The notes below the pieces were generated by a model that was given only the letters and a program-made list of their open reading frames with translations, was not told where the DNA came from and did not search any database. The position numbers were made by a program, and so were the translations under genes. Of a stretch of 64,000 bases of DNA, positions 10,839-55,276 are shown piece after piece. Source of the DNA: an uncultured Gemmatimonadota bacterium (GTDB lineage: Bacteria > JAAXHH01); NCBI GenBank assembly GCA_951812955.1, contig OX638340.1, positions 2,176,001-2,240,000 on the forward strand. Reading direction: 5' to 3'. The first letter of the stretch is position 1; each line of letters starts with the position of its first letter.

Positions 10839-10975
10839 GGTTTTCTACGGCGCGGCAGGGGCGCTACAGGGGGGAACTATCGAGGAGTAACCAGAGCGCG
10901 GCCGGAGCGCAGCTGGAGCGCTACAGGGGCACTGCCGAGGGAGTTACCACAGCGCTACAAGGGTGCTAATGGGTC

Positions 10976-17908: not shown

Positions 17909-18343
17909 TCAGGTTTGGTCCGTCTCCACCAGATGCTTCGCGGCCACTGCGTCCAGGACGCCATTTACGAACCCGCCGGACTGTTCCGTGCTGTACTTCT
18001 TGGCCAGTTCGATCGCTTCGTTGATGGAAACCGCCGTCGGTATATCGAGAAAGGCGATGAGTTCGCAGGCGCCCAGCCGGAGGATGCAGTCGTCGATGCG
18101 GGCCACGCGGTCCCGGTCCCAGTGCCGCACCACCGCGTTGATGTGACTGTTCACGGTCTCTTCATGCTGGCGGAGCCGATCGATCAGCGTTTCGGCGAAA
18201 CGCCGGGTGTTGCGTGACGCCAGGGACCACCCGGGCAGCCTTGGAAGGGCCTTGCCGGGGTCGTCTCCGGTCTGTTCGGCGAGGTAAAGCGTCTGAAGCG
18301 CCAGTTCACGGCCCAGGCGGCGCTCTCCCGCGCGTGCATTCAC
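17909..18343 (-). CDS. nusB: Transcription antitermination factor NusB
   Basis: [13 protein letters not shown]...NGVLDAVA is the NusB fold. Probable GTG start at 18343 immediately after the ribH stop. The upstream ORF extension is Arg-rich read-through. Confidence 0.7.
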
Positions 18344-18882
18344 TCCCGTTCCCTCGTTCCGTCCTGCCTGTCCTGCCCGTTCGTTCCGTCCTGCCCTCCC
18401 GGTGCGCGCTGCCCGTCTAGCCTGCGCATCAAGTCCGCCATTTCCAGCGCGGCCAGGGCGGCGTCCCAACCCCTGTTGCCGGCCTTCGTACCTGCGCGTT
18501 CGATGGCCTGTTCGAGGTTTTCTGTGGTCAGCACGCCGAAGATCACCGGCACCCCGGTATCCCTGGCGGCAGCGGCAATGCCCTTCGCCGATTCCCCGGC
18601 CACGTAATCGAAATGGGGAGTCGCGCCGCGGATGACGCATCCCAGGCAGATCACGGCGTCATAGATGCCGCTTGCCGCCATCTTCCGGGCCGCCAGCGGG
18701 ATCTCGAAGGCGCCGGGCACCCAGACCACGTCGATCCGGTCTTCATCCACTCCATGGCGGCGCAGTCCATCCAGCGCGCCCTTCAGCAGGGACTCGCTGA
18801 TAAACCCGTTGAAGCGGCCGGCCACGATACCGTACCGGTCGCCACTCCCGTTGACCAGGCTGCCTTCGATGGTTTTCGTCAC
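18340..18882 (-). CDS. ribH: 6,7-dimethyl-8-ribityllumazine synthase with a repeat-encoded Gly/Gln/Asp-rich C-terminal tail
   Basis: [12 protein letters not shown]...WVPGAFEIP is canonical RibH. The last approx. 25 aa are encoded by the (gttccgtcctgcc)n repeat at 18345-18420. Confidence 0.85.
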
Positions 18883-18900
18883 GAACTCGCTCCTTGCGGA

Positions 18901-20160
18901 TCACAGCAGGCTGTCGAAACTGATTTCGTCCGGCGGCTCGTCGAGATCCAACAGGTGGCCGAGTTTGCCGCGCTTGGTCTTGAGATAACCCACGTTGTAC
19001 CGGTTCGGCGACGTCTGCAGCGGGACGCGTTCGGTCACTTCGAGACCGTACCCCTCGATCCCTATCCGCTTCGACGGATTGTTGGTCATGATCCGGATCG
19101 TGGTCAAGCCCAGGTCCGCCAGAATCTGGGAACCGATCCCGTAGTCGCGGGCGTCCACGGGAAGCCCCAGCGCCTGATTTGCTTCCACCGTATCATGGCC
19201 CTGGTCCTGCAGGGCGTAGGCCCTGAGCTTGTTGGCCAATCCGATGCCCCGTCCTTCCTGGCGCATGTACAGCAACACGCCGCTCCCCTCGTCGCTGATG
19301 CGCTTGAGCGCCTGCTGCAACTGGTCGCCGCAGTCGCATCGCATGGACCCGAATACGTCTCCCGTGAGACATTGTGAGTGCACGCGGACGAGCACGTTCC
19401 GCTCGCCGTCCACGTTGCCCTTGACCAGGGCGACGTGGTGGTCGCCGGTCAGGTCGTCTTCGTACAGGTGGGAGTCGAATTCCCCGTACTTGCTGGGGAT
19501 GGTCGTCGTGACCACCCGCTTGACGAGTTTCTCGCTGGCCCGGCGATACTCGATAAGGTCCTTGATGGTGATGATCTTCAGGTCATGATCTTTCGCGATC
19601 TCCACAAGCCGGGGCAGACGGGCCATGGCCCCATCGTCGTCCATGATCTCGCAGAGCACGCCGGCGGGGTAGAGACCGGCCAGCTTCACCAGGTCGACGG
19701 TGGCCTCCGTGTGTCCGGCTCGCCGCAACACGCCGCCGTCGAAGGCCTGCAGCGGAAAGATATGGCCCGGACGGGCAAGGTCCTCGGGCCTGCTGCCCGG
19801 ACGGACGAATACCTGTACCGTCTCGGCGCGGTCCGCCGCGGATATGCCCGACGTCGTGCCGTTTACGGCATCGACGGATACGGTGAAGCGCGTGCCCAGC
19901 AAGGCCGTGTTGACCTCTTCGCCGACCATGGCAGGCACCTTCAGCTCTTCCAGGCGTTCGCGCGAGGTCGGAAGGCAGATCAGTCCACGACCATACCGGG
20001 CCATGAAGTTAATGGCCGCCGGAGTCGTTCTTTCGGCGGCCATGATAAAATCGCCTTCATTTTCGCGATCTTCGTCGTCGATGACTATAAGTATGCGCCC
20101 GGCCTTGATCTCTTCGATGGCTTCGGGGATGGTACTAAAGGGGGACGGCATGGAGTTCAA
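18901..20160 (-). CDS. ribBA: Bifunctional 3,4-dihydroxy-2-butanone-4-phosphate synthase / GTP cyclohydrolase II
   Basis: 419 aa with a DHBP synthase N-terminal half (RENEGD) and a GTP cyclohydrolase II C-terminal half (CxCG...C zinc motif). Confidence 0.85.
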   Translation of the reverse strand: MNSMPSPFSTIPEAIEEIKAGRILIVIDDEDRENEGDFIMAAERTTPAAINFMARYGRGLICLPTSRERLEELKVPAMVGEEVNTALLGTRFTVSVDAVNGTTSGISAADRAETVQVFVRPGSRPEDLARPGHIFPLQAFDGGVLRRAGHTEATVDLVKLAGLYPAGVLCEIMDDDGAMARLPRLVEIAKDHDLKIITIKDLIEYRRASEKLVKRVVTTTIPSKYGEFDSHLYEDDLTGDHHVALVKGNVDGERNVLVRVHSQCLTGDVFGSMRCDCGDQLQQALKRISDEGSGVLLYMRQEGRGIGLANKLRAYALQDQGHDTVEANQALGLPVDARDYGIGSQILADLGLTTIRIMTNNPSKRIGIEGYGLEVTERVPLQTSPNRYNVGYLKTKRGKLGHLLDLDEPPDEISFDSLL

Positions 20161-20229
20161 TCGTGTTTTCGGTTACCCGGACAGCGTGCGTCCCGGTCTG
20201 TATTCGAGCCGCCGCCAGGCTTTACCGAC

Positions 20230-20889
20230 CTACATTTTTTCTCTCAACCAGGCTTCGGTGATGGGTGAGACATCCTGGTCACCGCCGGGATGAGCATTCC
20301 GGCCGGTATGCATAAGGGACGCGACGTAACGGCCGATCATGTCCACTTCTATGTTGATCTCGTCACCGATCTGCCTGCTTCCGAACGTCGTAATCGACGC
20401 GGTATGAGGTATGATCGATACGGCTGCCAAATTACCCGCCAGACCGGCGATTGTCAAGCTAATTCCATCCAGCGCGATGGACCCTTTCTCGATGACGAAG
20501 GGCGTCAGATCGTCCGATATTTCCACCTCGTACCACAGGCTGTTGCCCTGTTCTTCCCGCGCTGCGATCCGCCCCACGCCGTCCACGTGGCCCTGCACCA
20601 GGTGGCCGTCTATCCTGTCCGATAGGCGCATCGGCCGCTCCAGGTTCACCCTGTGCCCGACCTGGAGATTCTCGAAGGTCGTCCGGGAAACCGTCTCGGG
20701 TACGATTTCCACGGAAAACGCCTCGTCGCCGTAATCCACAATGGTCAGGCAGACCCCGTTGACTGCGACGCTGGCGCCCTGCACCAGGTCCGGTGCCATG
20801 GACGGCGCCTCCACCGTCAGTTTCAGGCCGTCCCGGCCACCGTCGAGGGCCTGGATCAGACCCGTGGTTTCAACGATTCCCGTGAACAT
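20230..20889 (-). CDS. ribE: Riboflavin synthase alpha subunit
   Basis: MFTGIV start and duplicated lumazine-binding halves (VNGVCLTI / LDGISLTI). Confidence 0.85.
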   Translation of the reverse strand: MFTGIVETTGLIQALDGGRDGLKLTVEAPSMAPDLVQGASVAVNGVCLTIVDYGDEAFSVEIVPETVSRTTFENLQVGHRVNLERPMRLSDRIDGHLVQGHVDGVGRIAAREEQGNSLWYEVEISDDLTPFVIEKGSIALDGISLTIAGLAGNLAAVSIIPHTASITTFGSRQIGDEINIEVDMIGRYVASLMHTGRNAHPGGDQDVSPITEAWLREKM

Positions 20890-21004
20890 GGATGCTACTC
20901 CTCGTATCCTGCGCTGCGCCCGGCGATATGCCCATGATCTCTTAAGGCGTACGCCGGCGTTCCCCTGACCTCTTCAGCCGTACACCGGCATTTCCTCAAT
21001 CTCT

Positions 21005-22099
21005 TCAGCCGTATAATGGCGTTCCCGTGATGAGAAAATCGCCGCCCAACCGTTCCACCTGCGGATCGTTCAGGTCGATCGCCTTCGAGAGATCGTCCAG
21101 TTGCAGGCCGGCGATCGAGGGGATCCCCGCGCCCAGAATGCGCGGCGCGACGAAACAGGCGATCCGGTCTACGGCCTTTTCCCGAAGGAATGAAGCGGCC
21201 ACGCGGCTTCCGCCTTCCACCATTAGGGTCACGATCCCTGACCTGCCAAGTGCCGATTTGAGCGGATCCACGGGGACAGATCCGTCCCCGCCTTCCATTA
21301 CGAGCACTTCGGCGCCCGCCCCTTTCAGCCCGTTTATCCGATCTGCCGGCGCCGCTTCCGTAACGCACACGGTCGCCGGCGCGTCACCATTCAATATACG
21401 CGCGTCCAGCGGAGTCCGTGCCCGGCTGTCGAGCACGATGCGACGGGGCTGTCGGCCGTCCACGTGCCGGACCGTGAGCCGCGGGTCGTCCGCCAGCACG
21501 GTGTCGATGCCCACGAGCACGGCGTCCGCCCGGCTGCGCATCAGGTGTACCCGTTTTCTGGCGGCCTCCCCGGTGATCCACTGCGATTGGCCGTTCCGCG
21601 TGGCGATGCGGCCATCCAGCGTCTGGGCCAGCTTGAGCAGCACGAAGGGCTGGCCGGTTGTCCGGTGGTGGACATAGGCCGCGTTCAGTTCCCGCGCTTC
21701 CGCCTCCAGGAGGCCCGTCTCCACTGCGATACCCGCGGCGCGCAACCTTTCAATCCCCTTGCCGGAAACGCGCCGGTCCGGATCGGCCATGGCGAGGTGG
21801 ACGCGGACGATGCCCGACGCGATAATCGCGTCCGTGCACGGAGGCGTACTGCCCTGGTGGCAGCAGGGTTCCAGGGTAACGTACAACTCGGCCCCTCGAC
21901 CGCGGTCGCCGGCTTCGCGCAGGGCCTGGGGCTCCGCGTGCTGTCCTCCGTATTCCCCGTAGTATCCCCGGCCCAGAACGATGCCGTCGCGGACGACCAG
22001 AGATCCCACCATGGGATTGGGACTGGTCCGGCCAATTCCCTGCTCCGCCAGGTCCAGTGCCTGGCGCATGAATAACGCGTCTTTTTCCGATTTCGTCAT
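21005..22099 (-). CDS. ribD: Bifunctional diaminohydroxyphosphoribosylaminopyrimidine deaminase / 5-amino-6-(5-phosphoribosylamino)uracil reductase
   Basis: Deaminase HAE...PCxxC motif and a C-terminal RibD_C reductase domain. Probable start MTKSEKDALFMRQALDLA at 22099. Confidence 0.8.
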   Translation of the reverse strand: MTKSEKDALFMRQALDLAEQGIGRTSPNPMVGSLVVRDGIVLGRGYYGEYGGQHAEPQALREAGDRGRGAELYVTLEPCCHQGSTPPCTDAIIASGIVRVHLAMADPDRRVSGKGIERLRAAGIAVETGLLEAEARELNAAYVHHRTTGQPFVLLKLAQTLDGRIATRNGQSQWITGEAARKRVHLMRSRADAVLVGIDTVLADDPRLTVRHVDGRQPRRIVLDSRARTPLDARILNGDAPATVCVTEAAPADRINGLKGAGAEVLVMEGGDGSVPVDPLKSALGRSGIVTLMVEGGSRVAASFLREKAVDRIACFVAPRILGAGIPSIAGLQLDDLSKAIDLNDPQVERLGGDFLITGTPLYG

Positions 22100-22146
22100 G
22101 GCGTAAGCTAGGGTATCTGCGAAGAAGGTGTCAAGGCCTTTTGCCC

Positions 22147-22175
22147 TTGACAACAGGGGGTTCGCCCCCTAGTTT
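22147..22175 (+). promoter_or_regulatory. Sigma70-like promoter for ilvE (TTGACA-17-TAGTTT)
   Basis: TTGACA at 22147-22152, a 17-nt spacer that is itself a GGGGGTTCGCCCCC hairpin, then TAGTTT at 22170-22175, about 65 nt upstream of the ilvE ATG. The -35 lies inside a palindrome (GTCAAGGccttttgCCCTTGAC) that also reads TTGACA on the minus strand, toward ribD. Confidence 0.45.
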
Positions 22176-22242: not shown

Positions 22243-23166
22243 ATGGCCACCCTGCCTGAGGCCGAATTCATCTGGTTCAATGGAAAACTCGTACCCTGGC
22301 AAGACGCGAAGATACACGTGCTTTCCCACGTGGTCCATTACGGTTCGAGTTTTTTCGAGGGCATGCGCTGCTACGAGACGAAGCGGGGCCCCGCGGTGTT
22401 CCGGCTGGACGAACACGTGGACAGGCTGTTCGACTCCTGCAAGATCTACCGGGTTGAGATCCCCTATTCCCGGGACCAAATCCGGGACGCCGTCCTCGAG
22501 ACCATCCGGTCCAACAAGCTGGGTTCCTGTTACGTCCGCCCCGTGGTGTACCGCGGGTACGGACTACTCAGCGTCGACCCCCTGGGCTGCCCCGTGGAAG
22601 TCGCCATCGGGACATGGAACTGGGGCGCCTATCTCGGTGCCGACGTCCTGGAAAACGGCGTGGACGTATGCATCTCATCCTGGAGCCGTCCCGCGCCGAA
22701 CACCCATCCTGCCCTGTCGAAGGCCGGGGGTAACTACCTGAACTCCCAGCTGATCCGCATGGAGGCCATCGAGAACGGGTATAGCGAGGGCATCGCCCTG
22801 AACACCAACGGCCTGATCAGTGAAGGCAGCGGCGAGAACATCTTCGTCGTGAAAGACGGCCGGGTCATCACCAACAGCCTGGCGGCCTCGGTACTGGGCG
22901 GCATCACGCGCAACTCCGTCATGACGCTCGCACAGGACGCCGGGTTCGAGATCGTCGAACAGGATATCCCCCGGGAGATGCTTTACATCGCCGACGAGGT
23001 TTTCTTCGTGGGCAGCGCCGTGGAAGTGACGCCGGTCCGGTCCATCGACCGCATAGACGTCGGCGACGGTTCCCGCGGCCCGGTCACCAAGGAGATCCAG
23101 GACCGGTTCTTCGCGGTTACCACCGGCGAGGGCGAGGATACCCATGGCTGGTTGGCGTATGTGTGA
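22243..23166 (+). CDS. ilvE: Branched-chain amino acid aminotransferase
   Basis: MATLPEAEFIWFNGKLVPW is a class IV PLP aminotransferase start. AAGGAGA RBS 8 nt upstream. Confidence 0.85.
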   Translation: MATLPEAEFIWFNGKLVPWQDAKIHVLSHVVHYGSSFFEGMRCYETKRGPAVFRLDEHVDRLFDSCKIYRVEIPYSRDQIRDAVLETIRSNKLGSCYVRPVVYRGYGLLSVDPLGCPVEVAIGTWNWGAYLGADVLENGVDVCISSWSRPAPNTHPALSKAGGNYLNSQLIRMEAIENGYSEGIALNTNGLISEGSGENIFVVKDGRVITNSLAASVLGGITRNSVMTLAQDAGFEIVEQDIPREMLYIADEVFFVGSAVEVTPVRSIDRIDVGDGSRGPVTKEIQDRFFAVTTGEGEDTHGWLAYV

Positions 23167-23280
23167 GTTGAATCGCCGGTCGTAGCGATCGGGAAGAATA
23201 CGGGCGCGCCCAGGGAATCAAACAGTGAGCCGACGGTAGAGGCGACGCCCATTCGTGACGTTACATCCCGGTTCTCCGGC

Positions 23281-26200
23281 CTATCTGTTCCAGTCGGACA
23301 AATCGGGTACGCCCCAGCTGACGACGACCTCCAGTCCCGGTTCCGGTAACGCCCGCCGCGCGGTCTGTAGGCCCGTCGACGGCGCCGTCCAGTTCCGCAG
23401 CAAACCCCGCACCCGCCCGTCTACCGGATCCAGGAGGAGCGCCGCAGAGCGGTCATCCCCATCGTACTCGCTTTCTTCGCCGCCCAGCGTCGCGACGCCT
23501 TCGGGACCGGAAAGCACGATGCGTGAAAGCCGGCTGGACCAGTCTAGCCGGACCGGAATGACGAAGGCAAAGGAACCACCCTCGCCGTCGGCGATCTCGG
23601 CCATGCCGAAGCGCAGGCTGAACAGCGCGCCCCCTCCTTCGTCTTCGCCGACGATCCGGTACGGACCATCCAGTCGGGGCATGGATGCAGGCGCGTCAAT
23701 GGCGAAAGCCGGTTCAAGCACTATATCACCGTCGCTGTTCACACCGCCCCAGAGCAGCAGGCTGCGCGTGGACGGCGCGAAGGCCGCTGCCATCCGGGTT
23801 TCCCGTGTCTGCGACAAGCGGTAGCCCATGGCCTTGTTGAAATTGTAATCACTGATCCAAGCGGGATCGCAGTAGCCCATCAGATCCGGTGTACTCGGGT
23901 CCACTAATCTCCCCTCGAGAAGGTCATATCCCCATGCGCCTATCGAACCATCCGGATAGGGATATTCGGGATCGGGTCCACCGGCATCACCGCACGGGGC
24001 ATGAAATAAGTTCAGATTGTGGCCTAGTTCGTGGGCGATGGTAAATCCACTGAGGCCTGAGATAGTCACGTTTCCCGGCAGCTCACCCCGACCTCCGCCG
24101 TTTCTCAGCATACCCATGTAGTGTCCGGCCCCACCTTCCATGGTTGCAATTACCCCGGTAAGCCGGAAAACTTCAGATCGGTTTTCCCACACCGGATCCA
24201 CCGATATCGAGACAGGTTCATGAACATTCAGCACGAAGTCGCCCACGGGAAGGATATCGCGCGTCAATCGGAACAGGTCGGATTCAGCATTAAGTCCATC
24301 GATCTGCGCCAGGTACGATTCGTCGGGATGCTCCGTCCAGAGGAACGGAATCAGAGTGAGTTCAAAAGGCGGTAGATTCACCACGTCCACGGGCATTCGG
24401 CCCTCACGGGGAAGGCGGCCGGAGATGCCCAGAGCCGGATCCAGGCCGCCGTCCGGATCGATCTCGACGACCATCTCCAGCCCTGGCGCCAGAACGCGAC
24501 CGGGAATCCGTGCGTTGGCTGTAGCCGATAGATCTCCCTCTTCGATCTGCCGGGGAATAGTAGTGCCGCTGCCTGGTATGTCTACAGCATACACTTCGGC
24601 GCCGCGCTCGTAAAAGGTGGCCCGCACGGGAGGCAAGGCGGCATCCGGATCCGATTCCGACGTAATGAAAACGCGGAGTAGCGCATCTTCTCCCGCCATC
24701 AGGGGAACCGGATACGCGAGCGACTGCGTCGCCTGGGTAACGTAGGCCGCTGATCCTCCACCCCCTACGCCGCAGTCGGCAACCCGATTGTTCGGAATAC
24801 CCCGCAGCCAGTCCTGGAAACCGGGATCAGAAGGCGCACATAGTTGCGTTCCGCCAAGCAGGAGTTCTTCCAGGTCCAGGTTGGTCAACGTCGGAGGCAG
24901 TACGCCGGACATGTCTGCATTATCCGTAAGACCCAGCGACTTGAGTCCGACAAGACCACCGAAGGTTCGCGGGATATTGCCTCTAATCCTGTTGTACGAA
25001 AGACGCAGCTGTTCAAGGTTGCCGAGTTGGCCCAATTCCGGAGGGATCAGACCCGTCAACTGGTTGTTGGCAAGCCACAGTCTCTCGAGGTTGCCGAGTT
25101 GGCTTATTTCCAAGGGGATCGGCCCCGACAACTGATTGTTGGAAAGCTGCAGAATCACGAGGTTGCCGAGTTGGCCTATTTCCGAGGGGACCGGACCCGT
25201 CAACTGATTGTTGGTTAGATGCAGAATCTCGAGGTTGCCGAGTTGGCCTATTTCCAAGGGGATCGGACCCGACAATTGATTTTTGGAAAGCTGCAGTGTC
25301 TTGAGGTTGCCAAGTTGGCCTATTTCCGTGGGGATCGGACCCGACAACTGATTGAAGTCAAGCCCCAGCCATTCGAGGTTGCCGAGTTGGCCTATTTCCG
25401 TAGGGATCGGACCGCTTATTGAGGTGCCTTGAATTCCCAGCTTTTCGAGGGCGCCGAGTTGGACCAATTCCGGAGGGATCGACCCCGTCAACCGGGTGAA
25501 GTTAAGGTTCAGGTTTTCAAGGTTATGTAGTTGTCCGAGTTCCGGAGGAATCGACCCTGTCAACTGATTCCCGCCAAGAGACAATTCTGTGAGGTTTTGT
25601 AGTTGTCCAAGTTCCGGAGGAATCGACCCTGTCAACTGATTCCCGCCAAGAAACAATGTTGCGAGGTTATGAAGCTGTCCAAGTTTCGGGGGAATCGAAC
25701 CTGTTAACCGATTCTCGCCAAGGTATAATACTGTGAGATTGTAGAGCTGTCCAAGTTCCGGGGGAATCGAACCTGTTAACTGATTCCCACCAAGAGACAA
25801 TCTATTGAGTTTAATTAGTTGTCCGATATCAGGCGGTAACACTCCCAGAAGATTGTTCGCAGCTAAGCTCAGCCCTGTTGCCTCTCCACTTGAGTTGGTT
25901 GCCACGCCATGCCATTCGTCTAGTCGCGAATCGCTCAGCCAATTTGTACTGTTGGTCCAGTTTGGACCATTCGTACTGTTATATAGGGCAGCTAAGGGAT
26001 AGTAGTCCCGCCGCATTTCGGTGCAGTTCATTACTTTTTGTTGAGGTATGCCATCCAGCCATTCCTGAAACTGGGTATCCACCGGTGCGCACAGTTGTGT
26101 TCCCTCAAGTTCCAATTCAAGTAATCCGATACTCGTGAATGAATGTGGTACTGGTCCGATAAGCCCGGAATTGGATGAGAGATTCAGCACTTCAAGATTT

Positions 26201-28443
26201 GCCAGATCGCTCAACTGGCTTGGAAGCGATCCAGTCATATTGTTGTTGGCAAGCTCCAGCGCTCTCACCCTACCGCCGGCCCCCACAGACACGCCGTACC
26301 ACTCGTACAGCGGCGCATCGCTCAGCCAGTTTTCATCGTTCGACCATGATGCCCCGTCTGTTGCCCTGTAAAGCGCGATCAGGGTGCCCGAATCGCAGAA
26401 GACGGCGCCTCTCTTCGTTGAGATTCCGCTGAGCCACTTCTGGAATGCCGGGGTGCTGGGTATACACAGATCCGTAGATTCCATCTCAAGTGACTCAGGT
26501 TTTGTCTGAATAAGCGCCGGCGGCAACGGTCCGGTGAGTTCACGGTTATGGCTGAGACTCAGAATCCGCAGGCTTTTAAGGTTGCCCAATGCTGGCGGAA
26601 TTTGACCCGATAACCGATTCCGGCTGAGATGCAACCGTCGAAGGTTAGCCAGATTGCCCAGCTCAGGCGGAATCGAGCCGGACAGCTCGTTGTTATCAAG
26701 ATACAGACCTTGCAGGTTTTCAAGGCTCCCCAATGCTGGCGGGATCGGACCGGACAACTCGTTGCTCCCAAGATTCAGCTCTTGCAGGTTTTTCAGGTTG
26801 CCCAATACTGGCGGAATCGAGCCGGACAGCTCGTTGCCCCCAAGTTCCAGATATTGCAGGTTTTCAAGATTGCCCAGTTCAGGAGGAATCGGTCCCGACA
26901 ATTCGTTGCCCGCAAGATACAGATACTGCAGATTTTCAAAGCTGCCCAGTTCGGGCGGGATCGGACCGGACAATTCATTGTTCCAAAGACTCAGGTATTG
27001 TAGGTTTTCAAAGCTGCCCAGTTCGGGCGGGATCGGACCGGATATACGATTTCGGTAAAGATCCAGCTTATGTAGGCTGTCCAGGTTGCTCAACTCGACC
27101 GGGATTGAGCCGGACAACCCGTTCTCTTTGAGAACCAGGCTTGTGACGCGGCCCACGACGTTTGTCGTGACTCCGTACCACGCTTCGAGCGGCCCGTCGC
27201 TCAGCCAGTTGTCGTTGTTGCCCCAATTGGGGCCGTCGGTGGCGTTGTAAAACGCGGTCAGCCCCGCTCGATCAGTGCGGTCATCTGTGACCATTATCTC
27301 CACATTGGCAGACGCGCTGCCGGCACGCGCCGTGACCGTTGCGCTGCCGTTGCCGACCGCCGTCACCAGACCCTGAGAACTCACCGTCGCCACCGACGCG
27401 TCGCTGCTCTGCCAGTCCACGACCGCACCAGCTACCGGCTGGCCGTTCTGATCGAGCACCGATGCCGTCAACTGCACAGTCTCCCCCAGGGACATCAGCG
27501 TCGCCGCCGCCGGCTCGATTACCACGCTGCCCGCAGACTGCATGACCGTCACCGGGACGCTCCCGGACGCGCTGCCGGCACGCGCCGTGACCGTTGCGCT
27601 GCCGTTGCCGACCGCCGTCACCAGACCCTGGGAACTCACCGTCGCCACCGACGCGTCGCTGCTCTGCCAGTCCACGACCGCACCAGCTACCGGCTGGCCG
27701 TTCTGATCGAGCACCGATGCCGTCAACTGCACAGTCTCCCCCAGGGACATCAGCGTCGCCGCCGCCGGCTCGATTACCACGCTGCCCGCAGACTGCATGA
27801 CCGTCACCGGGACGCTCCCGGACGCGCTGCCGGCACGCGCCGTGACCGTTGCGCTGCCGTTGCCGACCGCCGTCACCAGACCCTGGGAACTCACCGTCGC
27901 CACCGACGCGTCGCTGCTCTGCCAGTCCACAACCGCACCAGCTACCGGCTGGCCGTTCTGATCGAGCACCGATGCCGTCAACTGCACAGTCTCCCCCAGG
28001 GACATCAGCGTCGCCGCCGCCGGCTCGATTACCACGCTGCCCGCAGACTGCATGACCGTCACCGGGACGCTCCCGGACGCGCTGCCGGCACGCGCCGTGA
28101 CCGTTGCGCTGCCGTTGCCGACCGCCGTCACCAGACCCTGGGAACTCACCGTCGCCACCGACGCGTCGCTGCTCTGCCAGTCCACAACCGCACCAGCTAC
28201 CGGCTGGCCGTTCTGATCGAGCACCGATGCCGTCAACTGAGCCGTCGATCCTAAGGAGTTGAGCGTAACCGACGAAGGGGTGATCGTAACTCGGGTGGGT
28301 ATGGGCGTTACGGAGACTGGAGGAGGCTGTTCAGGCGGTTTCGGCTTTGTCGGGCTGTCCTTGCCACAGGTAACCATCGCAAGAAGGGTCAGACATGCTA
28401 CTGGGATCAGAATAAGACGTGAGACGGCTGGAGGCGGAGTCAT
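23281..28443 (-). CDS. Giant secreted lipoprotein: signal/lipobox, 4x Big_2 Ig-like repeats, 3 blocks of plant-specific-type LRRs each with an LRRNT_2-like cap, C-terminal metzincin-like zinc metalloprotease domain
   Basis: 1720 aa. N-terminus MTPPP...LLAMVTCGKD has a lipobox-like Cys. The 85-aa Big_2-like unit is repeated from near-identical 255-bp DNA units. Many 24-residue LxxLxxLxLxxNxLSGxIPxELGxLxN repeats follow N-caps of the form ALYxATDGxxWxNxxNWLSDxPLxEWxGV. The zinc site reads TIAHELGHNLNLFHAP, i.e. HExxHxxNxxH. Confidence 0.8.
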   Translation of the reverse strand: MTPPPAVSRLILIPVACLTLLAMVTCGKDSPTKPKPPEQPPPVSVTPIPTRVTITPSSVTLNSLGSTAQLTASVLDQNGQPVAGAVVDWQSSDASVATVSSQGLVTAVGNGSATVTARAGSASGSVPVTVMQSAGSVVIEPAAATLMSLGETVQLTASVLDQNGQPVAGAVVDWQSSDASVATVSSQGLVTAVGNGSATVTARAGSASGSVPVTVMQSAGSVVIEPAAATLMSLGETVQLTASVLDQNGQPVAGAVVDWQSSDASVATVSSQGLVTAVGNGSATVTARAGSASGSVPVTVMQSAGSVVIEPAAATLMSLGETVQLTASVLDQNGQPVAGAVVDWQSSDASVATVSSQGLVTAVGNGSATVTARAGSASANVEIMVTDDRTDRAGLTAFYNATDGPNWGNNDNWLSDGPLEAWYGVTTNVVGRVTSLVLKENGLSGSIPVELSNLDSLHKLDLYRNRISGPIPPELGSFENLQYLSLWNNELSGPIPPELGSFENLQYLYLAGNELSGPIPPELGNLENLQYLELGGNELSGSIPPVLGNLKNLQELNLGSNELSGPIPPALGSLENLQGLYLDNNELSGSIPPELGNLANLRRLHLSRNRLSGQIPPALGNLKSLRILSLSHNRELTGPLPPALIQTKPESLEMESTDLCIPSTPAFQKWLSGISTKRGAVFCDSGTLIALYRATDGASWSNDENWLSDAPLYEWYGVSVGAGGRVRALELANNNMTGSLPSQLSDLANLEVLNLSSNSGLIGPVPHSFTSIGLLELELEGTQLCAPVDTQFQEWLDGIPQQKVMNCTEMRRDYYPLAALYNSTNGPNWTNSTNWLSDSRLDEWHGVATNSSGEATGLSLAANNLLGVLPPDIGQLIKLNRLSLGGNQLTGSIPPELGQLYNLTVLYLGENRLTGSIPPKLGQLHNLATLFLGGNQLTGSIPPELGQLQNLTELSLGGNQLTGSIPPELGQLHNLENLNLNFTRLTGSIPPELVQLGALEKLGIQGTSISGPIPTEIGQLGNLEWLGLDFNQLSGPIPTEIGQLGNLKTLQLSKNQLSGPIPLEIGQLGNLEILHLTNNQLTGPVPSEIGQLGNLVILQLSNNQLSGPIPLEISQLGNLERLWLANNQLTGLIPPELGQLGNLEQLRLSYNRIRGNIPRTFGGLVGLKSLGLTDNADMSGVLPPTLTNLDLEELLLGGTQLCAPSDPGFQDWLRGIPNNRVADCGVGGGGSAAYVTQATQSLAYPVPLMAGEDALLRVFITSESDPDAALPPVRATFYERGAEVYAVDIPGSGTTIPRQIEEGDLSATANARIPGRVLAPGLEMVVEIDPDGGLDPALGISGRLPREGRMPVDVVNLPPFELTLIPFLWTEHPDESYLAQIDGLNAESDLFRLTRDILPVGDFVLNVHEPVSISVDPVWENRSEVFRLTGVIATMEGGAGHYMGMLRNGGGRGELPGNVTISGLSGFTIAHELGHNLNLFHAPCGDAGGPDPEYPYPDGSIGAWGYDLLEGRLVDPSTPDLMGYCDPAWISDYNFNKAMGYRLSQTRETRMAAAFAPSTRSLLLWGGVNSDGDIVLEPAFAIDAPASMPRLDGPYRIVGEDEGGGALFSLRFGMAEIADGEGGSFAFVIPVRLDWSSRLSRIVLSGPEGVATLGGEESEYDGDDRSAALLLDPVDGRVRGLLRNWTAPSTGLQTARRALPEPGLEVVVSWGVPDLSDWNR
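27311..28238. repeat. Near-identical 255-bp tandem repeat array (about 3.6 copies) encoding Big_2-like Ig domains
   Basis: Copies begin at 27311, 27566, 27821 and 28076. The plus-strand antisense ORFs 27339-27545, 27594-27800 and 27849-28055 are identical. Confidence 0.9.
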
Positions 28444-28861
28444 GATCCGAAACGGCTGGGACTTGGAGCGTTGTCCCTTGGGAAGGACCAGAAGGATTCT
28501 CAGGTTAAGGAACCTCTAGTCAAGTTCCTGGCATATACTGCGTAAATAACGGAACCCTTCATTAATTCTGCACGGCTAAGAGGAAGCATATCGAATGCCT
28601 GTCAGGCAAGAAGCATAATCCGTCTAGAAGTAGCGGTCACACTATTTAAGTCCGACCCGACCACGACCGCACAAAAACATCGACAATATACTACACAAAA
28701 TAAAAGGTTAATAACCTAAGGAACCTCTGATCAAGCCCCTGACGTTGTTTTCGTGGATAAAGTAGATCATGCTAATATAATACAGGATAAAGAGTGATTT
28801 GTGCGTGAATAAAACGCCATATAAGAAGAATATTACGCGAATATCAGTCTTGGAATATCTT

Positions 28862-30093
28862 AAAGGAACCTTCGATCAAGTTCTTGGCGTTGTTTTCGTG
28901 GATAAGGTAATATGAACTCGGTATCCGTCGTACGTTGTGCAGCGCCTTCTCAACTTTAAGATCAAACGGGGTACGCGTTCATGAAACAATCGAGTTTTTT
29001 CGATATGGCCTACGATCAGAAGAAGAAAACGCGCAAGGAACGCTTTCTGGGTGAGATGGATGCGGTGCTTCCCTGGGACCTGTTGCTCGCGCCCATCCTG
29101 GCGCACTATCCGAAGGCGGGAGGCGGCAGGCGCCCCATAGGGGCTCCGGTGATGCTCAGGATCTACTTCATGCAGCAGTGGTACGGCCTTGGCGATCCGG
29201 CCATGGAAGACAGTCTCTACGACGTGGAATCGATGCGCCGCTTCGCAGGCGTGGATCTTGGCGGCGTGCCCGACGAGACGACGATCTGCAAGTTCCGCCA
29301 CCTCTTGGAAGCCCATGGACTGACCGAAGCGTTGTTCGAGCAGACAAAGCGCTATCTGTCGGATCGGGGCATGATGGTGAGCGAAGGCACGATCGTGGAT
29401 TCAGGCGATCATCCATGAGCCGTCGTCGACGAAGAACAAGGAGGGTAAGGGGGACCCCGAGATGGCCTTACGCGAAGAAGGGCAACACCTGGCACTTCGG
29501 CATGAAGGCCCACGTGGGCAGCGATCCGAAGGGACGGGTGCACAGCGTGGTGGCCACGCCCGCCTCGGTCCACGACGCCAAGGCGATGGAGGCCTGCCTG
29601 CATGGACAAGAAAAAGCGATCTACGGCGACAAGGCCTATGCGGACCAGGTGAGAAAGCAAAGGGCAGAAGAGGAAGGGATCGTATGGCGGGTGCATCGCA
29701 AGGCCAACAGGGGCAGGCGCCTCAACTGTGCGGACCGGTCGTTCAACCGAAAGAGCAATCGCGTACGAGCAAGGGTCGAACATCCCGTTGGCATCATCAA
29801 AAACCTGTGGGGCTATCGAAAGGTCAGGTACCGGGGTCTTGCCAAGAACACGGCCCATCTCTTCACCCTGTTCGCCCTGGCCAACTTCCAGTCCGAAGGG
29901 AACTGGCGCTCACATGGGAAGCAGTCCGTCCAGACCTGGCGAAACCGAGCACAATGGCCGATACGGGACCCATCTGAGGCCAAAAACACCCTCGCAAGTA
30001 CCCCAAACGACACCATTTTCAACATGATCGTCCTCTAAACTGACTCATATCATACCTCTTGGCCGGACAACCGGGTTGATCAGAGGTTCCTTA
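28862..30093 (+). mobile_element. IS5-family insertion sequence (about 1.23 kb) with terminal inverted repeats AAGGAACCTCTGATCAA / TTGATCAGAGGTTCCTT
   Basis: Left IR at about 28863 (aaggaaccttcgatcaag). Right IR at 30077-30093 is its exact complement with one mismatch. The transposase ORFs lie between them. Confidence 0.7.
28981..30038 (+). pseudogene. IS5-family DDE transposase, disrupted by two frameshifts (split over three frames)
   Basis: The N-terminal part (frame 1 to about 29395) ends EGTIVD. The IS5 hallmark IIHEPSSTKNKEGKGDPEM is in frame 2. KKGNTWHFGMKAHVGSD and the rest of the DDE domain are in frame 3 to 30038. Both shifts are +1, so they do not compensate. Confidence 0.7.
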
Positions 30094-30676
30094 AATGACT
30101 ACATTTCGACATGCTACTGTCTCAAAGTCATGATATGACATCCTGCAACTCACAATACATGTATCATGGTAGTAATGCGAATGCCATTTCTACGATATGT
30201 TCGTCTCATACATCACCAACTTCACCTCCCCCCACCCCAAACCGGCTTGTACCTTGGGGATGGAATTAGGACCTGGTGAAAGCTGTTCGATCGGCAGTGC
30301 AACGTTTGAAGTCAGGGATGACGGGTTCGGTTGTGTCGTAGGCATATGTGTGCAGGTACCGGTCTTACATTGAACAACTTCAGAGCTAGCAAAATAGCCG
30401 GCACCTCCTGTTGGAGAATTGACGGACTACCCTAGCGTTTGAGTCGGATTTGCAATATTAGCCCGGATGCCTATGGTGGTTTTGTGCAGCCAGTGAGTTA
30501 CGAGAATAGATGTACTTCCAGTAAACGTGGAAATGGACTCACTTTAGTCGCATCGGGTCAAAGGAAAGCTACTGATCCGGACTTACGCAGACCGGGTCAC
30601 TTTTTAGCGGCTACCCATAGAACTTAAGAATACAAAAAGACCGACGCCCGGTTGGGTTACAACTGCGTCGCTTCTA

Positions 30677-31837
30677 TCATCCCACCCACACCGGGTGATC
30701 CGCGCCCAGGTGTTCGTATCCGTCCGTCAGCATACGCGCGCCGGTACCGTCGGCATTTGCCAGCCAGAGTCCGCTCGGTGACCCCACCCCGGCGCGGCAG
30801 AAGGCAAACATGGAACCGTCCGGCGACCAGGCGGAGCGGAAGTTCCACACTCGAGATTCATAGGGTATGAACTCCGTTTCCTCGCCCGTAAAGGGATCGA
30901 GCAGGCAGATGGCGGTGCCGCCGCGGGCTTCTTCGGGATAGTATTCCCGGTTGAAGTGGTCGATGTCCGGCCGTTGCGCCTGGTACGGCCAGGCCGTGCG
31001 GGAACCGGGCTCCGCGCGGGTGTACGTAACCCGTTTCCCGTCCGGGGTCCACTGGGCGATGTTTGAACCGCCGCCCCGGGATTCAGGGTTTCCATAGGAC
31101 GTGGCGAACCACTGGCGCTGGCCCGTCGTGACCTTCCGGTGGGTCGCGCCGTCCGGACTGCCGAGGCACAGATCGGCCCAGTCGTGTCCCGGATCATCGG
31201 GATAGTGGCAGTCCTGGTAGATCAGCCATTGCCCGTCCGGCGACCACATGGGACCGAAGTACAGGTGGCCCGGCGCCGCCGTGACTTCCACCCGGTTTCC
31301 TCCGTCCAGGTCGGACACGAAAATGCAGTAGCTGTCCCGGTCGGCCAGCATGGTCGCATGGTACGCGAACTTGCGGCCGTCCGGGCTGATCTGGACGCAG
31401 TAGACGAACCCTTCCTCGGCACCTGTGATCTCCCGCGGATCGGATCCGTCCAGGTCCATGGTCCAGATGCGCTGTTTCCCGTCGATGATGGGGTTCATCA
31501 CGAGACGTTCCTCTCCGGGCAGGATATGGGTGCACCCCATGAACGGCGCGGGCCGGTTCTTGAGGGCGATCTCCTCCAGCAGGCGGTCTTCTTCCAGGTC
31601 GTATATCCAGAGATGGACTCGCACATTGCCTTCCCAGGCTTTGCCCGGTTCGTAGCCGGACACGATCACCCTGCGGCGATCGTCGAACAGCGGTCCCCAA
31701 CCCCAGCTGGACATACCTGGAACATCCGGACGGGGATACCAGACCCTCGCACCGGCCGGGCTCGCGGGGTCATCCAGATCGGCCACGCCCAGCCGCCCGT
31801 GGGAGTTGAAAAGCAGTCGTTGACACGTGTTTTGCAT
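30677..31837 (-). CDS. TolB-like / PD40 WD40-like beta-propeller repeat protein
   Basis: Repeated xSPDG motifs (ISPDGRKFAY, WSPDGQWLIY, GSPDGATH, WTPDGKRVTY, WSPDGSMFAF). Probable start MQNTCQ at 31837. The longer ORF N-terminus is Arg-rich read-through. Confidence 0.65.
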   Translation of the reverse strand: MQNTCQRLLFNSHGRLGVADLDDPASPAGARVWYPRPDVPGMSSWGWGPLFDDRRRVIVSGYEPGKAWEGNVRVHLWIYDLEEDRLLEEIALKNRPAPFMGCTHILPGEERLVMNPIIDGKQRIWTMDLDGSDPREITGAEEGFVYCVQISPDGRKFAYHATMLADRDSYCIFVSDLDGGNRVEVTAAPGHLYFGPMWSPDGQWLIYQDCHYPDDPGHDWADLCLGSPDGATHRKVTTGQRQWFATSYGNPESRGGGSNIAQWTPDGKRVTYTRAEPGSRTAWPYQAQRPDIDHFNREYYPEEARGGTAICLLDPFTGEETEFIPYESRVWNFRSAWSPDGSMFAFCRAGVGSPSGLWLANADGTGARMLTDGYEHLGADHPVWVG

Positions 31838-31884
31838 GATGATTCCCGTTACGCTGGCCGCCGGGGTCTCCGCTACGCCCGCGC

Positions 31885-33042
31885 CTAGGGCGTCCGCCAC
31901 GCGATCCCGGCGTGGAAGCCCACATCGGGGGTGTTCTGATACTGGCTGAGATTCTCGGTCAGGGCCAGATCGAGTGACAGTGACTCCGACAGGGCGTACC
32001 GCACACCGGCTGTCGCCTCGATGGCCGTGCGGTTCAAGGGTCCGAGCCTGCTGCCGGGGAAGGGGCCGATGTTGGTCTGCGTCTGGACCAGCGCGGCCAG
32101 CCGGCCCGTGGTCCGGTATTCGAAGGCCAGCACGAGGGAAGTGATGGACCGCAAAGGGAATCCCTCGCCATGGGAAGGCCTGCCCAGCCGGCTGTGGGCC
32201 AGGTTGGCGTGAAAGACCAGGTGCTGCTCCGGCCGCCAGGTCGCGAACAGCGCCGCCTGGAAATCCGTTCCCCCGCTGCCGGTCAGCGTCTCCAGGTTGC
32301 CCGTGGACAGCTTCACGGCGCCGGCAAGGGCAAGGGTGACGTTCCTCCCGCCCAGGTACAGCGGCGTCTTCACCCGAAGCACAAGGTCCCCGGGCCGAAA
32401 GGCGGCGGACTCCACGCTTCTGATCCAGAAACGGCGGTTTCGGACGACGAATACGCCATAGTCGTTCCTGGGGGCCCACTCCCTGCCCCCGTTGGACAGG
32501 TTGAACATGCCGTGGAACCCCTCCACCACGCCATCCAGAAAGCCGCCGCCGTGCTTGAGGAAGGGCAGGGTCATGCCTGCCTGCAGGCGCGATGCGATTC
32601 GCCAGTCCAGGTCCACCGAGACGCGCAGGGTTTCCGAATCGACGAACAGCCGGTATTCGTTTGCAGGTGCGGCCCGGTAGTAGTCATCGGCGATCAGGGT
32701 ATCGCCCACGGGAAGGGTGCTCGCGTAGGTATTGGCGTAGTCGAACCGAACGGCCCAACGGGCCGACCGCCTCGGCAGCAGGTCTCCCGCATCGGGACGG
32801 AGTCCGAGGAACAACATTCTTACCGGGAACTGGTCCCGCTGCATGAAGGGACCGGTGGCAGGGGACTGGGAGAATACGGGAAAGGCGATGGTTAACAGGC
32901 TGCAAGCAACCGCCCGGCGCAACACGCGAGCCGCGCCCGGTAGGCGAGCCGCCCTTGGAAAACGAGCCGCACCCGGAAAGCGAGTCGCAGCACCCGGAAA
33001 GCGCTTTTCAACCTGGAAACGGTGCGATGTATATTCCGTCAT
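31885..33042 (-). CDS. Hypothetical secreted, possibly outer-membrane beta-barrel protein (DUF3187-like?), with a repeat-containing N-terminus
   Basis: Signal-peptide-like RRAVACSLLTIAFPVFSQ. An alternative GTG start at 32925 would skip the RFPGAA-repeat N-terminus. Alternating amphipathic beta-strand pattern. Family assignment is tentative. Confidence 0.45.
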   Translation of the reverse strand: MTEYTSHRFQVEKRFPGAATRFPGAARFPRAARLPGAARVLRRAVACSLLTIAFPVFSQSPATGPFMQRDQFPVRMLFLGLRPDAGDLLPRRSARWAVRFDYANTYASTLPVGDTLIADDYYRAAPANEYRLFVDSETLRVSVDLDWRIASRLQAGMTLPFLKHGGGFLDGVVEGFHGMFNLSNGGREWAPRNDYGVFVVRNRRFWIRSVESAAFRPGDLVLRVKTPLYLGGRNVTLALAGAVKLSTGNLETLTGSGGTDFQAALFATWRPEQHLVFHANLAHSRLGRPSHGEGFPLRSITSLVLAFEYRTTGRLAALVQTQTNIGPFPGSRLGPLNRTAIEATAGVRYALSESLSLDLALTENLSQYQNTPDVGFHAGIAWRTP

Positions 33043-48716: not shown

Positions 48717-49128
48717 GAAATTTCAATGACAACATAGCGTCATCACAAGCATTCGTTTAGGTATCTCCATTAACAATTTGCGACTCTTGACAATATAGAG
48801 AATCGAACCCATTGTGTCAAGGGTATTGGCGTGCCGCGGAACCCGTAGATTGGGGGTGCCGACGGCCGGAATCCGGGGGCACTGGAACGCGGACTTTTCG
48901 CTTGCCCGCAGCGCCGCCGCAGGGCTATATTGATTACATTGGCCCGCCGATCGGCATAGCGGGTGTAAGCGATTGAATTTACGGTCTTTACAGGCCATCG
49001 AGCGGCACGACATCGACCGGTGGAACGGCTCCACGCCTGTTTACGGAAGTTCTCGCATGTTTACCGCGTGTATCGTGTATAAGAAGTTCGCGCATGTTTA
49101 CGAATCAGAGATTGCCGGGGAACAAGCC

Positions 49129-50529: not shown

Positions 50530-50563
50530 GTAGGCAGTAGGCACACCCGAAACGGAGTATGGC

Positions 50564-55099: not shown

Positions 55100-55129
55100 A
55101 GCGGTATTCCGGGACGAGATTTTTCGATC

Positions 55130-55252: not shown

Positions 55253-55276
55253 TAGCGCTGAGTTGAGGACACTGTC

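What the first reader, a model, noticed from the sequence alone, without database searches (positions are those of the whole stretch)
23281..28443. 1720-aa lipoprotein fusing Ig-like (Big_2) repeats, plant-specific-type LRRs with LRRNT_2 caps, and a metzincin protease
The LRRs are the 24-residue LxxLxxLxLxxNxLSGxIPxELGxLxN type. Each of three blocks is preceded by an ALYxATDGxxWxNxxNWLSDxPLxEWxGV cap, as in plant receptor-kinase ectodomains, which is rare in bacteria. The C-terminus carries HELGHNLNLFH (HExxHxxNxxH), a reprolysin/M43-like metzincin zinc site. A ligand-binding LRR solenoid combined with a protease on a surface lipoprotein suggests a targeted adhesin-protease directed at a host or prey surface. 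The recombinogenic repeats and the IS element immediately upstream both point to an accessory, fast-evolving locus.
Basis: partly seen in the sequence, partly recalled or inferred. Interest (0 to 1): 0.75.

Follow-up and report, generated by a model that had tools for sequence, protein, structure and literature searches.

The report
Strain-variable LRR–metzincin lipoprotein gene
This is a real 1720-residue gene for a probably membrane-anchored protein that joins a stalk of Ig-like domains and three plant-style leucine-rich-repeat binding modules to a zinc protease; it belongs to a very large but unstudied family and sits in a chromosomal hot spot that differs between closely related strains.

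Summary
The sequence observation holds. An intact 1720-aa ORF lies on the minus strand (23281-28443). It encodes a signal peptide ending in a Cys, four Big_2 domains, 25 exact 24-residue plant-type LRRs in three capped modules, and a C-terminal HELGHNLNLFH module.

Two claims fail. The N-caps are not Pfam LRRNT_2, and the architecture is not rare. The protease module has 1204 relatives (50%-identity clusters) at E<=1e-30. Most of the best 150 are 900-2700 aa long and have the same cap-LRR-cap-protease layout. The named ones come mainly from Gemmatimonadota, Latescibacterota and Acidobacteriota MAGs, many sponge-derived, and some are labelled "M66 family metalloprotease".

The accessory-locus idea is directly supported. 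The gene, AT-rich spacers and a frameshifted IS5 element form a 7.5-kb insert between two convergent core genes. Ten related genomes carry nothing, an EcsC gene, or different paralogues (about 48% identity) at that site.

Most likely function: an envelope-anchored protease whose LRR modules select the target protein. The target is unknown, and host association is inferred. It is a new member of a catalogued but uncharacterised family.

The parts
23281..28443 (-). Whole ORF, 1720 aa plus stop
   Evidence: GC3 0.66
28366..28443 (-). Signal peptide ending in Cys26 (MTPPPAVSRLILIPVACLTLLAMVT-C-GKDSPTKP); probable lipobox with Thr at -1
   Evidence: Read from the sequence. The same '...TCGKDSPTKP' N-terminus occurs in many family members, and canonical L-S/A-C-G lipoboxes occur in Gemmatimonadota homologues.
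28297..28365 (-). Pro-rich linker (aa 27-49)
27280..28296 (-). Four tandem Big_2 Ig-like domains (aa 50-388), 85-aa / 255-bp units
   Evidence: Pfam PF02368, 4 stretches; TRF array 27311-28239 at 99%; copies 2 and 3 differ by 1 nt
26383..27267 (-). LRR module 1 (aa 393-687): N-cap, 9 LRRs of 24 aa, C-cap with Cys pair
26014..26382 (-). LRR module 2 (aa 688-810): N-cap, 2 LRRs, C-cap
24766..25995 (-). LRR module 3 (aa 817-1226): N-cap, 14 LRRs, C-cap (C1202...C1224)
23284..24726 (-). Protease module (aa 1240-1720): N-terminal beta-sandwich, metzincin catalytic domain, C-terminal beta-sandwich region
24001..24033 (-). Zinc-binding motif HELGHNLNLFH (aa 1471-1481)
   Evidence: H, E, H, H invariant in 45/45 and present in 119/120 homologues
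23878..23880 (-). Met1522, candidate Met-turn (DLMGYC), followed by invariant Cys1525
   Evidence: Invariant in alignments A1, A2 and A3. It lies between the active-site helix and the C-terminal helix of the model.
28860..30095 (+). IS5-family insertion sequence with inverted repeats; transposase split over two frames (28981-29418 and 29178-30038)
28506..28764 (+). Two orphan copies of the IS left end (28506-28553, 28717-28764) in an AT-rich spacer (GC 0.42) between the IS and the gene start
23167..30680 (.). 7.5-kb strain-specific insert between the stop codons of two convergent core genes: class-IV aminotransferase 22243-23166 (+) and a PD40/TolB-like gene about 30677-31900 (-)
   Evidence: blastn breakpoints against L081-L086; gene maps

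Best explanation
The gene encodes an exported, probably lipid-anchored, modular zinc endopeptidase. A signal peptide ending in Cys26 anchors the protein to a membrane. A Pro-rich linker and four Big_2 domains act as a stalk. Three capped solenoids of plant-type LRRs (9, 2 and 14 repeats) provide concave protein-binding surfaces. The last solenoid is joined through a conserved, probably disulfide-bonded C-cap to a catalytically competent metzincin (HExxHxxNxxH plus Met-turn).

The LRR modules most likely select and hold the protein substrate or surface that the protease then cuts. This is a targeting domain fused to a catalytic domain.

The gene belongs to a large multi-copy family. Here it is accessory cargo in a chromosomal hot spot that differs between closely related strains, which fits a variable cell-surface interaction repertoire.

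Shown: the domain anatomy, the metzincin fold, conservation of the catalytic residues, the family size and architecture, and the insertion polymorphism. Inferred: lipidation and surface exposure, protease activity, LRR-mediated targeting, and that the target is a host (probably sponge) extracellular protein.
For: - ORF and domains.
- Catalytic residues: H1471, E1472, H1475, H1481 and M1522 are invariant in 45/45 homologues from genome loci, and C1525 is invariant. The motif is present in 119/120 database homologues.
- Extracytoplasmic location: conserved Cys pairs in each C-cap and in the protease module fit an oxidising compartment. Signal-Cys-Gly N-termini recur across the family.
- LRR variability: it is concentrated at the x positions of LxxLxLxxN (columns 22, 23, 1, 3, 4), on an almost invariant scaffold. 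That is the pattern expected of a ligand-binding face.
- Coupling of LRR and protease: the model of LRR + C-cap + protease (aa 1050-1720) has pTM 0.90, which suggests a fixed geometry between them. The C-cap/protease junction is conserved in the family.
- Accessory status.
- Family distribution in sponge-derived MAGs.
Against: - There is no experimental evidence for any step.
- The lipobox is non-canonical (Thr at -1; Arg in one paralogue), and SignalP/LipoP could not be run.
- The canonical Gly of HExxHxxGxxH is Asn here (Ser, Asn or Gly in the family).
- I could not inspect model coordinates. Active-site geometry and the orientation of the LRR concave face towards the cleft are therefore unknown.
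Its Der and aminotransferase proteins are closest to named Zixibacteria/Latescibacteria proteins at only 63-75%. Host association is extrapolated from where the relatives were found.
- No ligand or substrate can be deduced from sequence.
Confidence: 0.6

Rival explanations
1. It is a general nutrient-scavenging exoprotease. The LRR and Big_2 domains merely tether the enzyme to the cell or to particulate or polymeric protein (like binding modules on other secreted hydrolases), with no specific host target.
Against: Variation is concentrated on the LRR concave face. Strain-specific presence/absence and paralogue swapping at one site are more typical of specific interaction proteins than of housekeeping digestion. 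Multi-copy tandem arrays of diverged paralogues occur.
Confidence: 0.2
2. It is primarily an adhesin or decoy. The LRR modules bind a partner (for example to evade host recognition), and the metzincin domain is inactive or only autoprocesses or releases the protein.
For: The canonical Gly of the metzincin motif is replaced by Asn/Ser. LRR proteins of sponge symbionts are usually discussed as eukaryotic-like binding proteins (PMC12993501).
Against: All zinc ligands, the catalytic Glu and the Met are invariant across sequences only 36-57% identical. That argues for purifying selection on catalysis.
Confidence: 0.1
3. The LRR region acts mainly as an intramolecular regulator (autoinhibitor) of the protease, as LRR domains do in IpaH/SspH-type effectors. 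Ligand binding would release activity.
For: pTM is 0.90 for the LRR + protease model, and the C-cap/protease junction is conserved. Both suggest a fixed LRR-protease interface. No separate prodomain is evident in the module. The IpaH analogy is from my own knowledge.
Against: Family members exist with the protease module and no LRR (for example 600-650-aa forms in L058, L066 and L070). I had no coordinates to see whether the cleft is covered.
Confidence: 0.07
4. The ORF is an assembly artefact or a decaying pseudogene in an IS-ridden region.
For: It contains near-identical 255-bp repeats. The adjacent IS transposase is frameshifted. The exact protein is not on record in the public collection. 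A paralogue in L083 is split into 1023 + 431 aa.
Against: The frame stays open for 5160 nt in a GC-rich genome. The whole architecture is colinear with independent homologues: P0362 (1520 aa, 58% identity over 1515 residues) and P0365 (1626 aa). All catalytic and cap residues are intact. Only the Big_2 copy number could plausibly be mis-assembled.
Confidence: 0.03

Closest known systems
Peptidase family M66 (StcE of enterohaemorrhagic E. coli; Pfam PF10462)
   Different: Only 81 of the 306 model positions match, around the zinc site. The family profile does not place StcE among its 60 best PDB matches. The Gly of the motif is Asn/Ser. An invariant Met is present, whereas M66 members are said to lack the conserved methionine (PMC7518263). 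The LRR and Big_2 modules are absent from StcE (my own knowledge). A mucinase specificity cannot be inferred.
Adamalysin/reprolysin and ADAM/ADAMTS catalytic domains (M12B)
   Different: Sequence similarity is confined to about 40 residues. No recognisable cysteine-switch prodomain or disintegrin domain was found. The flanking beta-sandwich domains differ.
Plant LRR receptor-kinase ectodomains (GSO1, FLS2, BRL2, RGFR1) with LRRNT_2 caps
   Different: The caps fail Pfam LRRNT_2 and lack the plant Cys pair. The first half of the cap (LxALYxATxGxxW) and the C-cap (GTxLCxPxxxxFQxWLxGI...C) are different motifs. There is no kinase or transmembrane segment. Several short capped modules replace one long solenoid.
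Bacterial proteins with plant-type LRRs (Xanthomonas XopAE/XopAC/XopL effectors; Leptospira LIC LRR proteins)
   Same: NCBIfam XopAE, XopAC and XopL and the LIC_11051 family hit the LRR region (E 3e-51 to 3e-27, all below their cutoffs). Leptospira LRR structures appear among the PDB hits. So plant-type LRRs in bacteria are an established phenomenon.
   Different: Those proteins lack a protease domain and the cap-LRR-cap modular organisation. None reaches its family cutoff here.
LRR-plus-enzyme effectors such as IpaH/SspH/SlrP (LRR + E3 ligase)
   Different: Different catalytic chemistry, a cytosolic host target, type III secretion, and no sequence relationship in the catalytic part.
Eukaryotic-like repeat proteins (ELPs) of sponge symbionts
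   Same: LRR proteins are a recognised ELP class in sponge-associated Latescibacterota and other symbionts (PMC12993501). Many homologues come from sponge-derived MAGs.
   Different: Full-text searches found no paper that combines sponge symbionts with M66 (0 'M66' occurrences among the 15 papers listed of 119 matching). None of the 11 listed papers naming Peptidase_M66/PF10462 is about sponge symbionts by its title or abstract. ELPs are generally treated as pure binding proteins.

Membership tests
Metzincin clan MA(M) | Extended zinc motif HExxHxxGxxH/D | tested here: inconclusive
   HELGHNLNLFH: all three His and the Glu are present and invariant. The Gly position is Asn here and S 24 / N 9 / G 8 among 45 homologues.
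Metzincin clan MA(M) | Conserved Met (Met-turn) downstream of the third His | tested here: met
   M1522, 41 residues after H1481, is invariant in A1, A2 and A3. It lies between the active-site helix and the C-terminal helix. The geometry itself could not be inspected.
Metzincin clan MA(M) | Metzincin catalytic fold | tested here: met
Peptidase M66 (PF10462 / StcE) | Pfam score above the gathering cutoff | tested here: met
   29.5-32 bits against 20.6; 45/45 homologues match, best E 5.7e-11.
Peptidase M66 (PF10462 / StcE) | Match over the whole peptidase unit, and significant sequence similarity to the type enzyme StcE | tested here: not met
   Only model positions 168-248 of 306 align. The family profile against PDB lists adamalysins first (E 8e-4), and StcE is not among the best 60.
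Peptidase M66 (PF10462 / StcE) | Mucin-type O-glycoprotein specificity | not testable with these tools
Plant-specific (PS) class LRR | 24-residue repeat LxxLxLxxNxLSGxIPxxLGxLxx | tested here: met
   25 repeats in an exact 24-residue register. The best sequence and fold matches are plant LRR-RK ectodomains.
LRRNT_2 (PF08263) N-terminal cap | Match to the Pfam model, including the Cys-x-W-x-G-V-x-Cys motif | tested here: not met
   None of the 3 caps hits, even at E<=10. Of 51 family caps, 1 hits at E 0.048, while 29 weakly hit LRR_10 PF18805. There are no Cys in the caps. Only the W-x-G-V strand aligns with plant caps.
Bacterial lipoprotein | Signal peptide with lipobox [LVI][ASTVI][GAS]-C | tested here: inconclusive
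   An n-region with Arg, a hydrophobic core, then A-M-V-T-C26-G. Thr at -1 is non-canonical. The motif '..TCGKDSPTKP' recurs in the family, and Gemmatimonadota homologues have canonical LSCG/LACG. SignalP/LipoP were not available.
Big_2 (PF02368) | Pfam score above cutoff | tested here: met
   125.8 bits against 22.8, 4 stretches.
IS5 family insertion sequence | IS5 DDE transposase flanked by terminal inverted repeats | tested here: met
   NF033581 scores 148.9 bits (cutoff 140) for the C-terminal part and 122 bits for the N-terminal part in another frame. 19-21-nt inverted repeats are present. The transposase is frameshifted, so the element may be inactive.
Type IX secretion substrate | C-terminal Por/T9SS sorting domain | tested here: not met
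   No T9SS C-terminal-domain model appears among the NCBIfam or Pfam hits at E<=0.01.

The most novel reading that the evidence does not exclude
The cap-LRR-cap-metzincin lipoproteins could be a hypervariable, horizontally exchanged 'receptor-protease' repertoire. Uncultivated symbionts of sponges (Gemmatimonadota, Latescibacterota, Acidobacteriota and the unnamed lineage of this window) would use it to recognise and cleave specific host extracellular or immune proteins. Cassette swapping at chromosomal hot spots would generate strain-specific host-interaction profiles, analogous to variable surface antigens.
Probability: 0.25. Interest if true: 0.65.

Novelty: new member of a known kind. Interest (0 to 1): 0.4.

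Why it matters
How uncultivated animal symbionts, especially those of sponges, are told apart from food bacteria and how they remodel their host matrix is an open question. Eukaryotic-like repeat proteins are the usual suspects, but they are treated as passive binders. This gene exemplifies a very large, unstudied family in which a receptor-like LRR binding surface is built onto an apparently active zinc protease. The comparison with sister genomes shows that such genes are swapped in and out of a defined chromosomal site between close relatives. That gives concrete, expressible candidates (protease module, single LRR modules) and a defined polymorphic locus for testing targeted proteolysis in symbiosis. 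For annotation, it shows that the label 'M66 family metalloprotease' rests on a partial match. It also shows that 'plant-type LRR' in these bacteria is a family trait and not a sign of recent transfer from plants.

Tried and rejected
- Pfam LRRNT_2 on the three caps alone (E<=10) and on 51 family caps: essentially no hits. The label was rejected.
- Single-sequence and profile searches of the protease module against PDB sequences gave only weak adamalysin matches around HExxH, and StcE was not recovered. A first profile search with A1 was swamped by LRR columns, so the alignment was rebuilt as A2.
- The afdb50 fold library was unavailable.
- Exact-sequence look-ups of the 1720-aa protein and of RibE found nothing. 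Repeating the OAD-beta look-up did not reveal the >1-Mb contig that also carries it. It is therefore still unknown whether the closest complete genome (ERZ25069711, Der 98%) has the gene.
- Synteny: none of the window's flanking genes occurs in the 79 genome loci that carry homologues, so there is no conserved operon context.
- Composite transposon: all four IS ends lie on the 5' side of the gene and none on the 3' side. Rejected.
- No EcsC remnant in the window.
- No second family member or LRR gene elsewhere in the window.
- Rfam found nothing in the window at gathering threshold.
- Promoter and terminator scans were not above shuffled expectation.
- Literature: no paper links M66 or LRR-metalloproteases to sponge symbionts. 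The accession numbers of the related assemblies occur in no paper. A paper on plant-bacteria gene transfer does not mention LRRs.
- GC content: the coding part of the insert is not clearly foreign (protease module 0.613 against 0.612 for the rest of the window). Only the spacers are AT-rich. Composition is therefore not used as evidence of transfer.
Full report
OBSERVATION. The coordinates 23281-28443 delimit one uninterrupted ORF of 1720 codons, read on the minus strand. Pfam finds four Big_2 domains (aa 50-388), very strong LRR matches and a Peptidase_M66 match at aa 1439-1520 that exceeds the gathering cutoff (29.5 against 20.6 bits). The three N-cap motifs are at aa 397, 690 and 819, and HELGHNLNLFH is at aa 1471-1481. 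Printed in rows of 24, all 25 LRRs stay in register without a single slip: 9, 2 and 14 repeats in three modules. The repeats are real in the DNA: a 255-bp unit x3.6 at 99% identity and 72-bp LRR arrays at 77-83%. Big_2 copies 2 and 3 differ by one nucleotide in 255. The sequence observation is therefore confirmed. Only the strand needed adding.

IS IT M66? All 45 homologues score above the Pfam M66 cutoff, and 26 also touch Reprolysin_3. However, the match covers only positions 168-248 of the 306-position model. A family profile searched against PDB sequences ranks adamalysins first (E 8e-4) and does not list StcE among the best 60. A structural paper states that M66 members lack the conserved methionine (PMC7518263), whereas this family has an invariant Met. 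I therefore call the module an M66-like metzincin. NCBI's name for some homologues, 'M66 family metalloprotease', rests on a partial match.

The caps are not LRRNT_2. None of the three hits the Pfam model even at E<=10. Of 51 caps sampled from the family, one hits at E 0.048, while 29 weakly hit LRR_10. A profile of the caps aligns its second half (NWLxDxPLxxWxGVxxxxxGRVxxL) to the N-cap position of FLS2, RLK5, TDR, PEPR1 and BAK1, but without the plant Cys pair. So the cap is a positional analogue that shares the W-x-G-V strand. It is not a member of the plant family.

Plant-type LRRs are not exotic in bacteria. NCBIfam models for the Xanthomonas effectors XopAE, XopAC and XopL and for a Leptospira family all hit the region, though below their cutoffs. 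Within modules 1 and 3, sequence variation is concentrated in columns 22, 23, 1, 3 and 4 of the 24-mer. These are the x positions of LxxLxLxxN. The scaffold (NxLSGxIPxELGxLxNL) is almost invariant. This is the pattern expected of a ligand-binding concave face.

FAMILY. The protease module has more than 1200 hits in the 90%-clustered database. The best is 65% identical, and many hits carry LRR Pfam domains. An exhaustive phmmer search over 1.84 billion 50%-identity representatives gives 5052 hits at E<=1e-3, 3513 at <=1e-10 and 1204 at <=1e-30. Of the 138 newly retrieved sequences among the 150 best representatives, 119 are 900 aa or longer (maximum 2731 aa), and the module sits at the C-terminal end in nearly all of the 150. 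Of those 119, 113 have plant-type LRRs, 106 an N-cap and 98 a C-cap by regular expression. Many begin with the same '...TCGKDSPTKP' N-terminus as the window protein. The nearest full-length relatives are colinear with it: P0362 is 1520 aa with 58% identity over 1515 residues, and P0365 is 1626 aa.

In species-representative genomes, 79 loci were recovered. Most are from Gemmatimonadota (Longimicrobiales, Candidatus Palauibacter). Chromosome-scale contigs of Latescibacterota (best, 56-57%) and Acidobacteriota also carry the module, and there are short contigs binned as Chloroflexota, Gammaproteobacteria, Bacteroidota and Opitutales. Full ORFs in these loci run from about 560 to 2550 aa. Many begin with a signal peptide ending in a Cys-Gly lipobox-like motif (some canonical, e.g. 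LSCG, LACG), and they are often in tandem arrays of 2-4 paralogues. Palauibacter species come from sponges. The architecture is therefore common in these lineages, not rare. In the A3 alignment the C-cap residues T, C, W, L, C and the junction to the protease are at least 90% conserved. The LRR-protease fusion is thus ancestral to the family and not a recent accident.

LOCUS. The flanks are ordinary chromosome. On the 3' side lie ribD-ribE-ribBA-ribH and a class-IV aminotransferase. On the 5' side lie a PD40/TolB-like gene, DUF3187 and the oxaloacetate decarboxylase genes. An IS5-family element (inverted repeats at 28862 and 30093) lies 417 bp upstream of the start codon, and its transposase is split over two frames. 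Two orphan copies of its left end lie between it and the gene.

The decisive result comes from relatives. A contig carrying an identical OAD-beta protein (L081) is colinear with the window at about 94.5% nucleotide identity. In it, the aminotransferase stop is 12 bp from the PD40 stop. Window 23167-30680 is a 7.5-kb insert. Ten related genomes were informative at this site (aminotransferase 88-91% identical). One has nothing there (L081). Seven have only an EcsC-family gene (L082, L085-L088, L090, L091). Two have two tandem Big_2-LRR-metzincin paralogues on the opposite strand (L083, L084), which are only about 48% identical to the window protein. An eleventh contig (L089) ends right after the aminotransferase and says nothing. 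None of the window's flanking genes occurs next to the 79 distant homologues. The gene is therefore accessory cargo in a hot spot between two convergent core genes. The IS is not arranged as a composite transposon around the gene.

ORGANISM. It is not named. Der GTPase has 98-100% identical matches in unnamed ENA assemblies of 3.65-4.2 Mb. L080, a 3.85-Mb contig whose name ends in '_c' (the assembler's mark for circular, as I read it), is syntenic over window 36-58 kb. The closest named proteins are from Zixibacteria (63-75%) and Latescibacteria (65%). The protease module is closest to Latescibacterota copies. A sponge or other host habitat is plausible but not shown.

MECHANISM. Shown: an exported-type N-terminus, a stalk of Ig-like domains, three capped LRR solenoids, and a metzincin with every catalytic residue intact. 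Conserved Cys pairs in the caps and the protease module fit an extracytoplasmic location. The model of LRR + C-cap + protease has pTM 0.90, which suggests that the last solenoid is held in a fixed position relative to the enzyme.

Inferred: the protein is lipid-anchored at Cys26 (Thr at -1 is non-canonical). It is displayed on or in the envelope. Its LRR surfaces capture a protein partner that the metzincin cleaves. Strain-level cassette turnover and concave-face variability point to a variable interaction partner, most plausibly host extracellular proteins. I put 0.6 on the core statement (an anchored, active, LRR-targeted protease that is accessory). I put considerably less on the identity of the target.

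Rivals are a general nutritional protease (0.2), an adhesin with a vestigial or self-processing protease (0.1), an LRR that mainly autoinhibits the enzyme (0.07), and an artefact or pseudogene (0.03).

Noticed in passing
window 60001-62300: A low-GC stretch (0.456 against about 0.61). Two minus-strand ORFs (60508-61152, 61136-62215) have GC3 of about 0.36. The second matches the GmrSD restriction-endonuclease N-terminal domain. This is probably a foreign defence islet.
   Followed up: partly
window 28860-30095 and 28506-28764: The IS5-family element has its transposase split over two frames near 29400. Two orphan left-end copies (47 nt, 68-85% alike) lie in direct orientation between the IS and the LRR gene. 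A sigma-70-like hexamer pair falls inside the first orphan end, about 53 nt upstream of the ATG, but the scan was not above chance.
   Followed up: partly
window 18340-22153: The riboflavin operon (ribD, ribE, ribBA, ribH) has no Rfam FMN riboswitch nearby. No Rfam family reaches its gathering score anywhere in the 64 kb.
   Followed up: no
L082, L085-L088, L090, L091 (about 10958-11863 in most); absent from the window: Most related genomes carry a 301-aa EcsC-family gene at the hot spot where the window has the LRR-protease. L089 and L090 additionally have an IS1595-type transposase on the other side of the aminotransferase. Both flanks of that gene are therefore insertion-prone.
   Followed up: partly
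L083 16457-20827: The second LRR-metzincin paralogue at the hot spot of a sister genome is split into 1023-aa and 431-aa ORFs exactly at the start of the protease module. This is either a pseudogene or a sequencing error.
   Followed up: no
L067 (binned Gammaproteobacteria) vs L068 (Gemmatimonadetes): Their protease modules are 90% identical although the contigs are assigned to different phyla. This is either mis-binning or recent cross-phylum transfer. Acidobacteriota copies are about 60% identical to Gemmatimonadota copies, which is more than many Gemmatimonadota paralogues are to each other.
   Followed up: partly
ENA assemblies ERZ25072076, ERZ25067264, ERZ25072670 (loci L082, L085-L090): Several distinct genomes or strains of the same unnamed lineage (3.65-4.2 Mb) occur within single assemblies. 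They carry different alleles at the hot spot.
   Followed up: no
window 14318-17050, 38851-40320, 56691-57707: The window encodes a TMEM260-like protein O-mannosyltransferase fused to TPR repeats, an MlrC/M81 peptidase and a creatininase. From my own knowledge, genes of this kind are often reported from host-associated marine bacteria. This is suggestive of habitat, not proof.
   Followed up: no
window 49105-50673 (-), 54046-55266 (+), 62713-63951 (-): Three sizeable ORFs (522, 406 and 412 aa) have no Pfam match at E<=1e-5. The 406-aa one has an unusually low GC3 (0.45).
   Followed up: no
P0361, P0363 (family representatives): Two family members (2036 and 1882 aa) contain two HExxHxxxxxH protease modules in one protein.
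   Followed up: no
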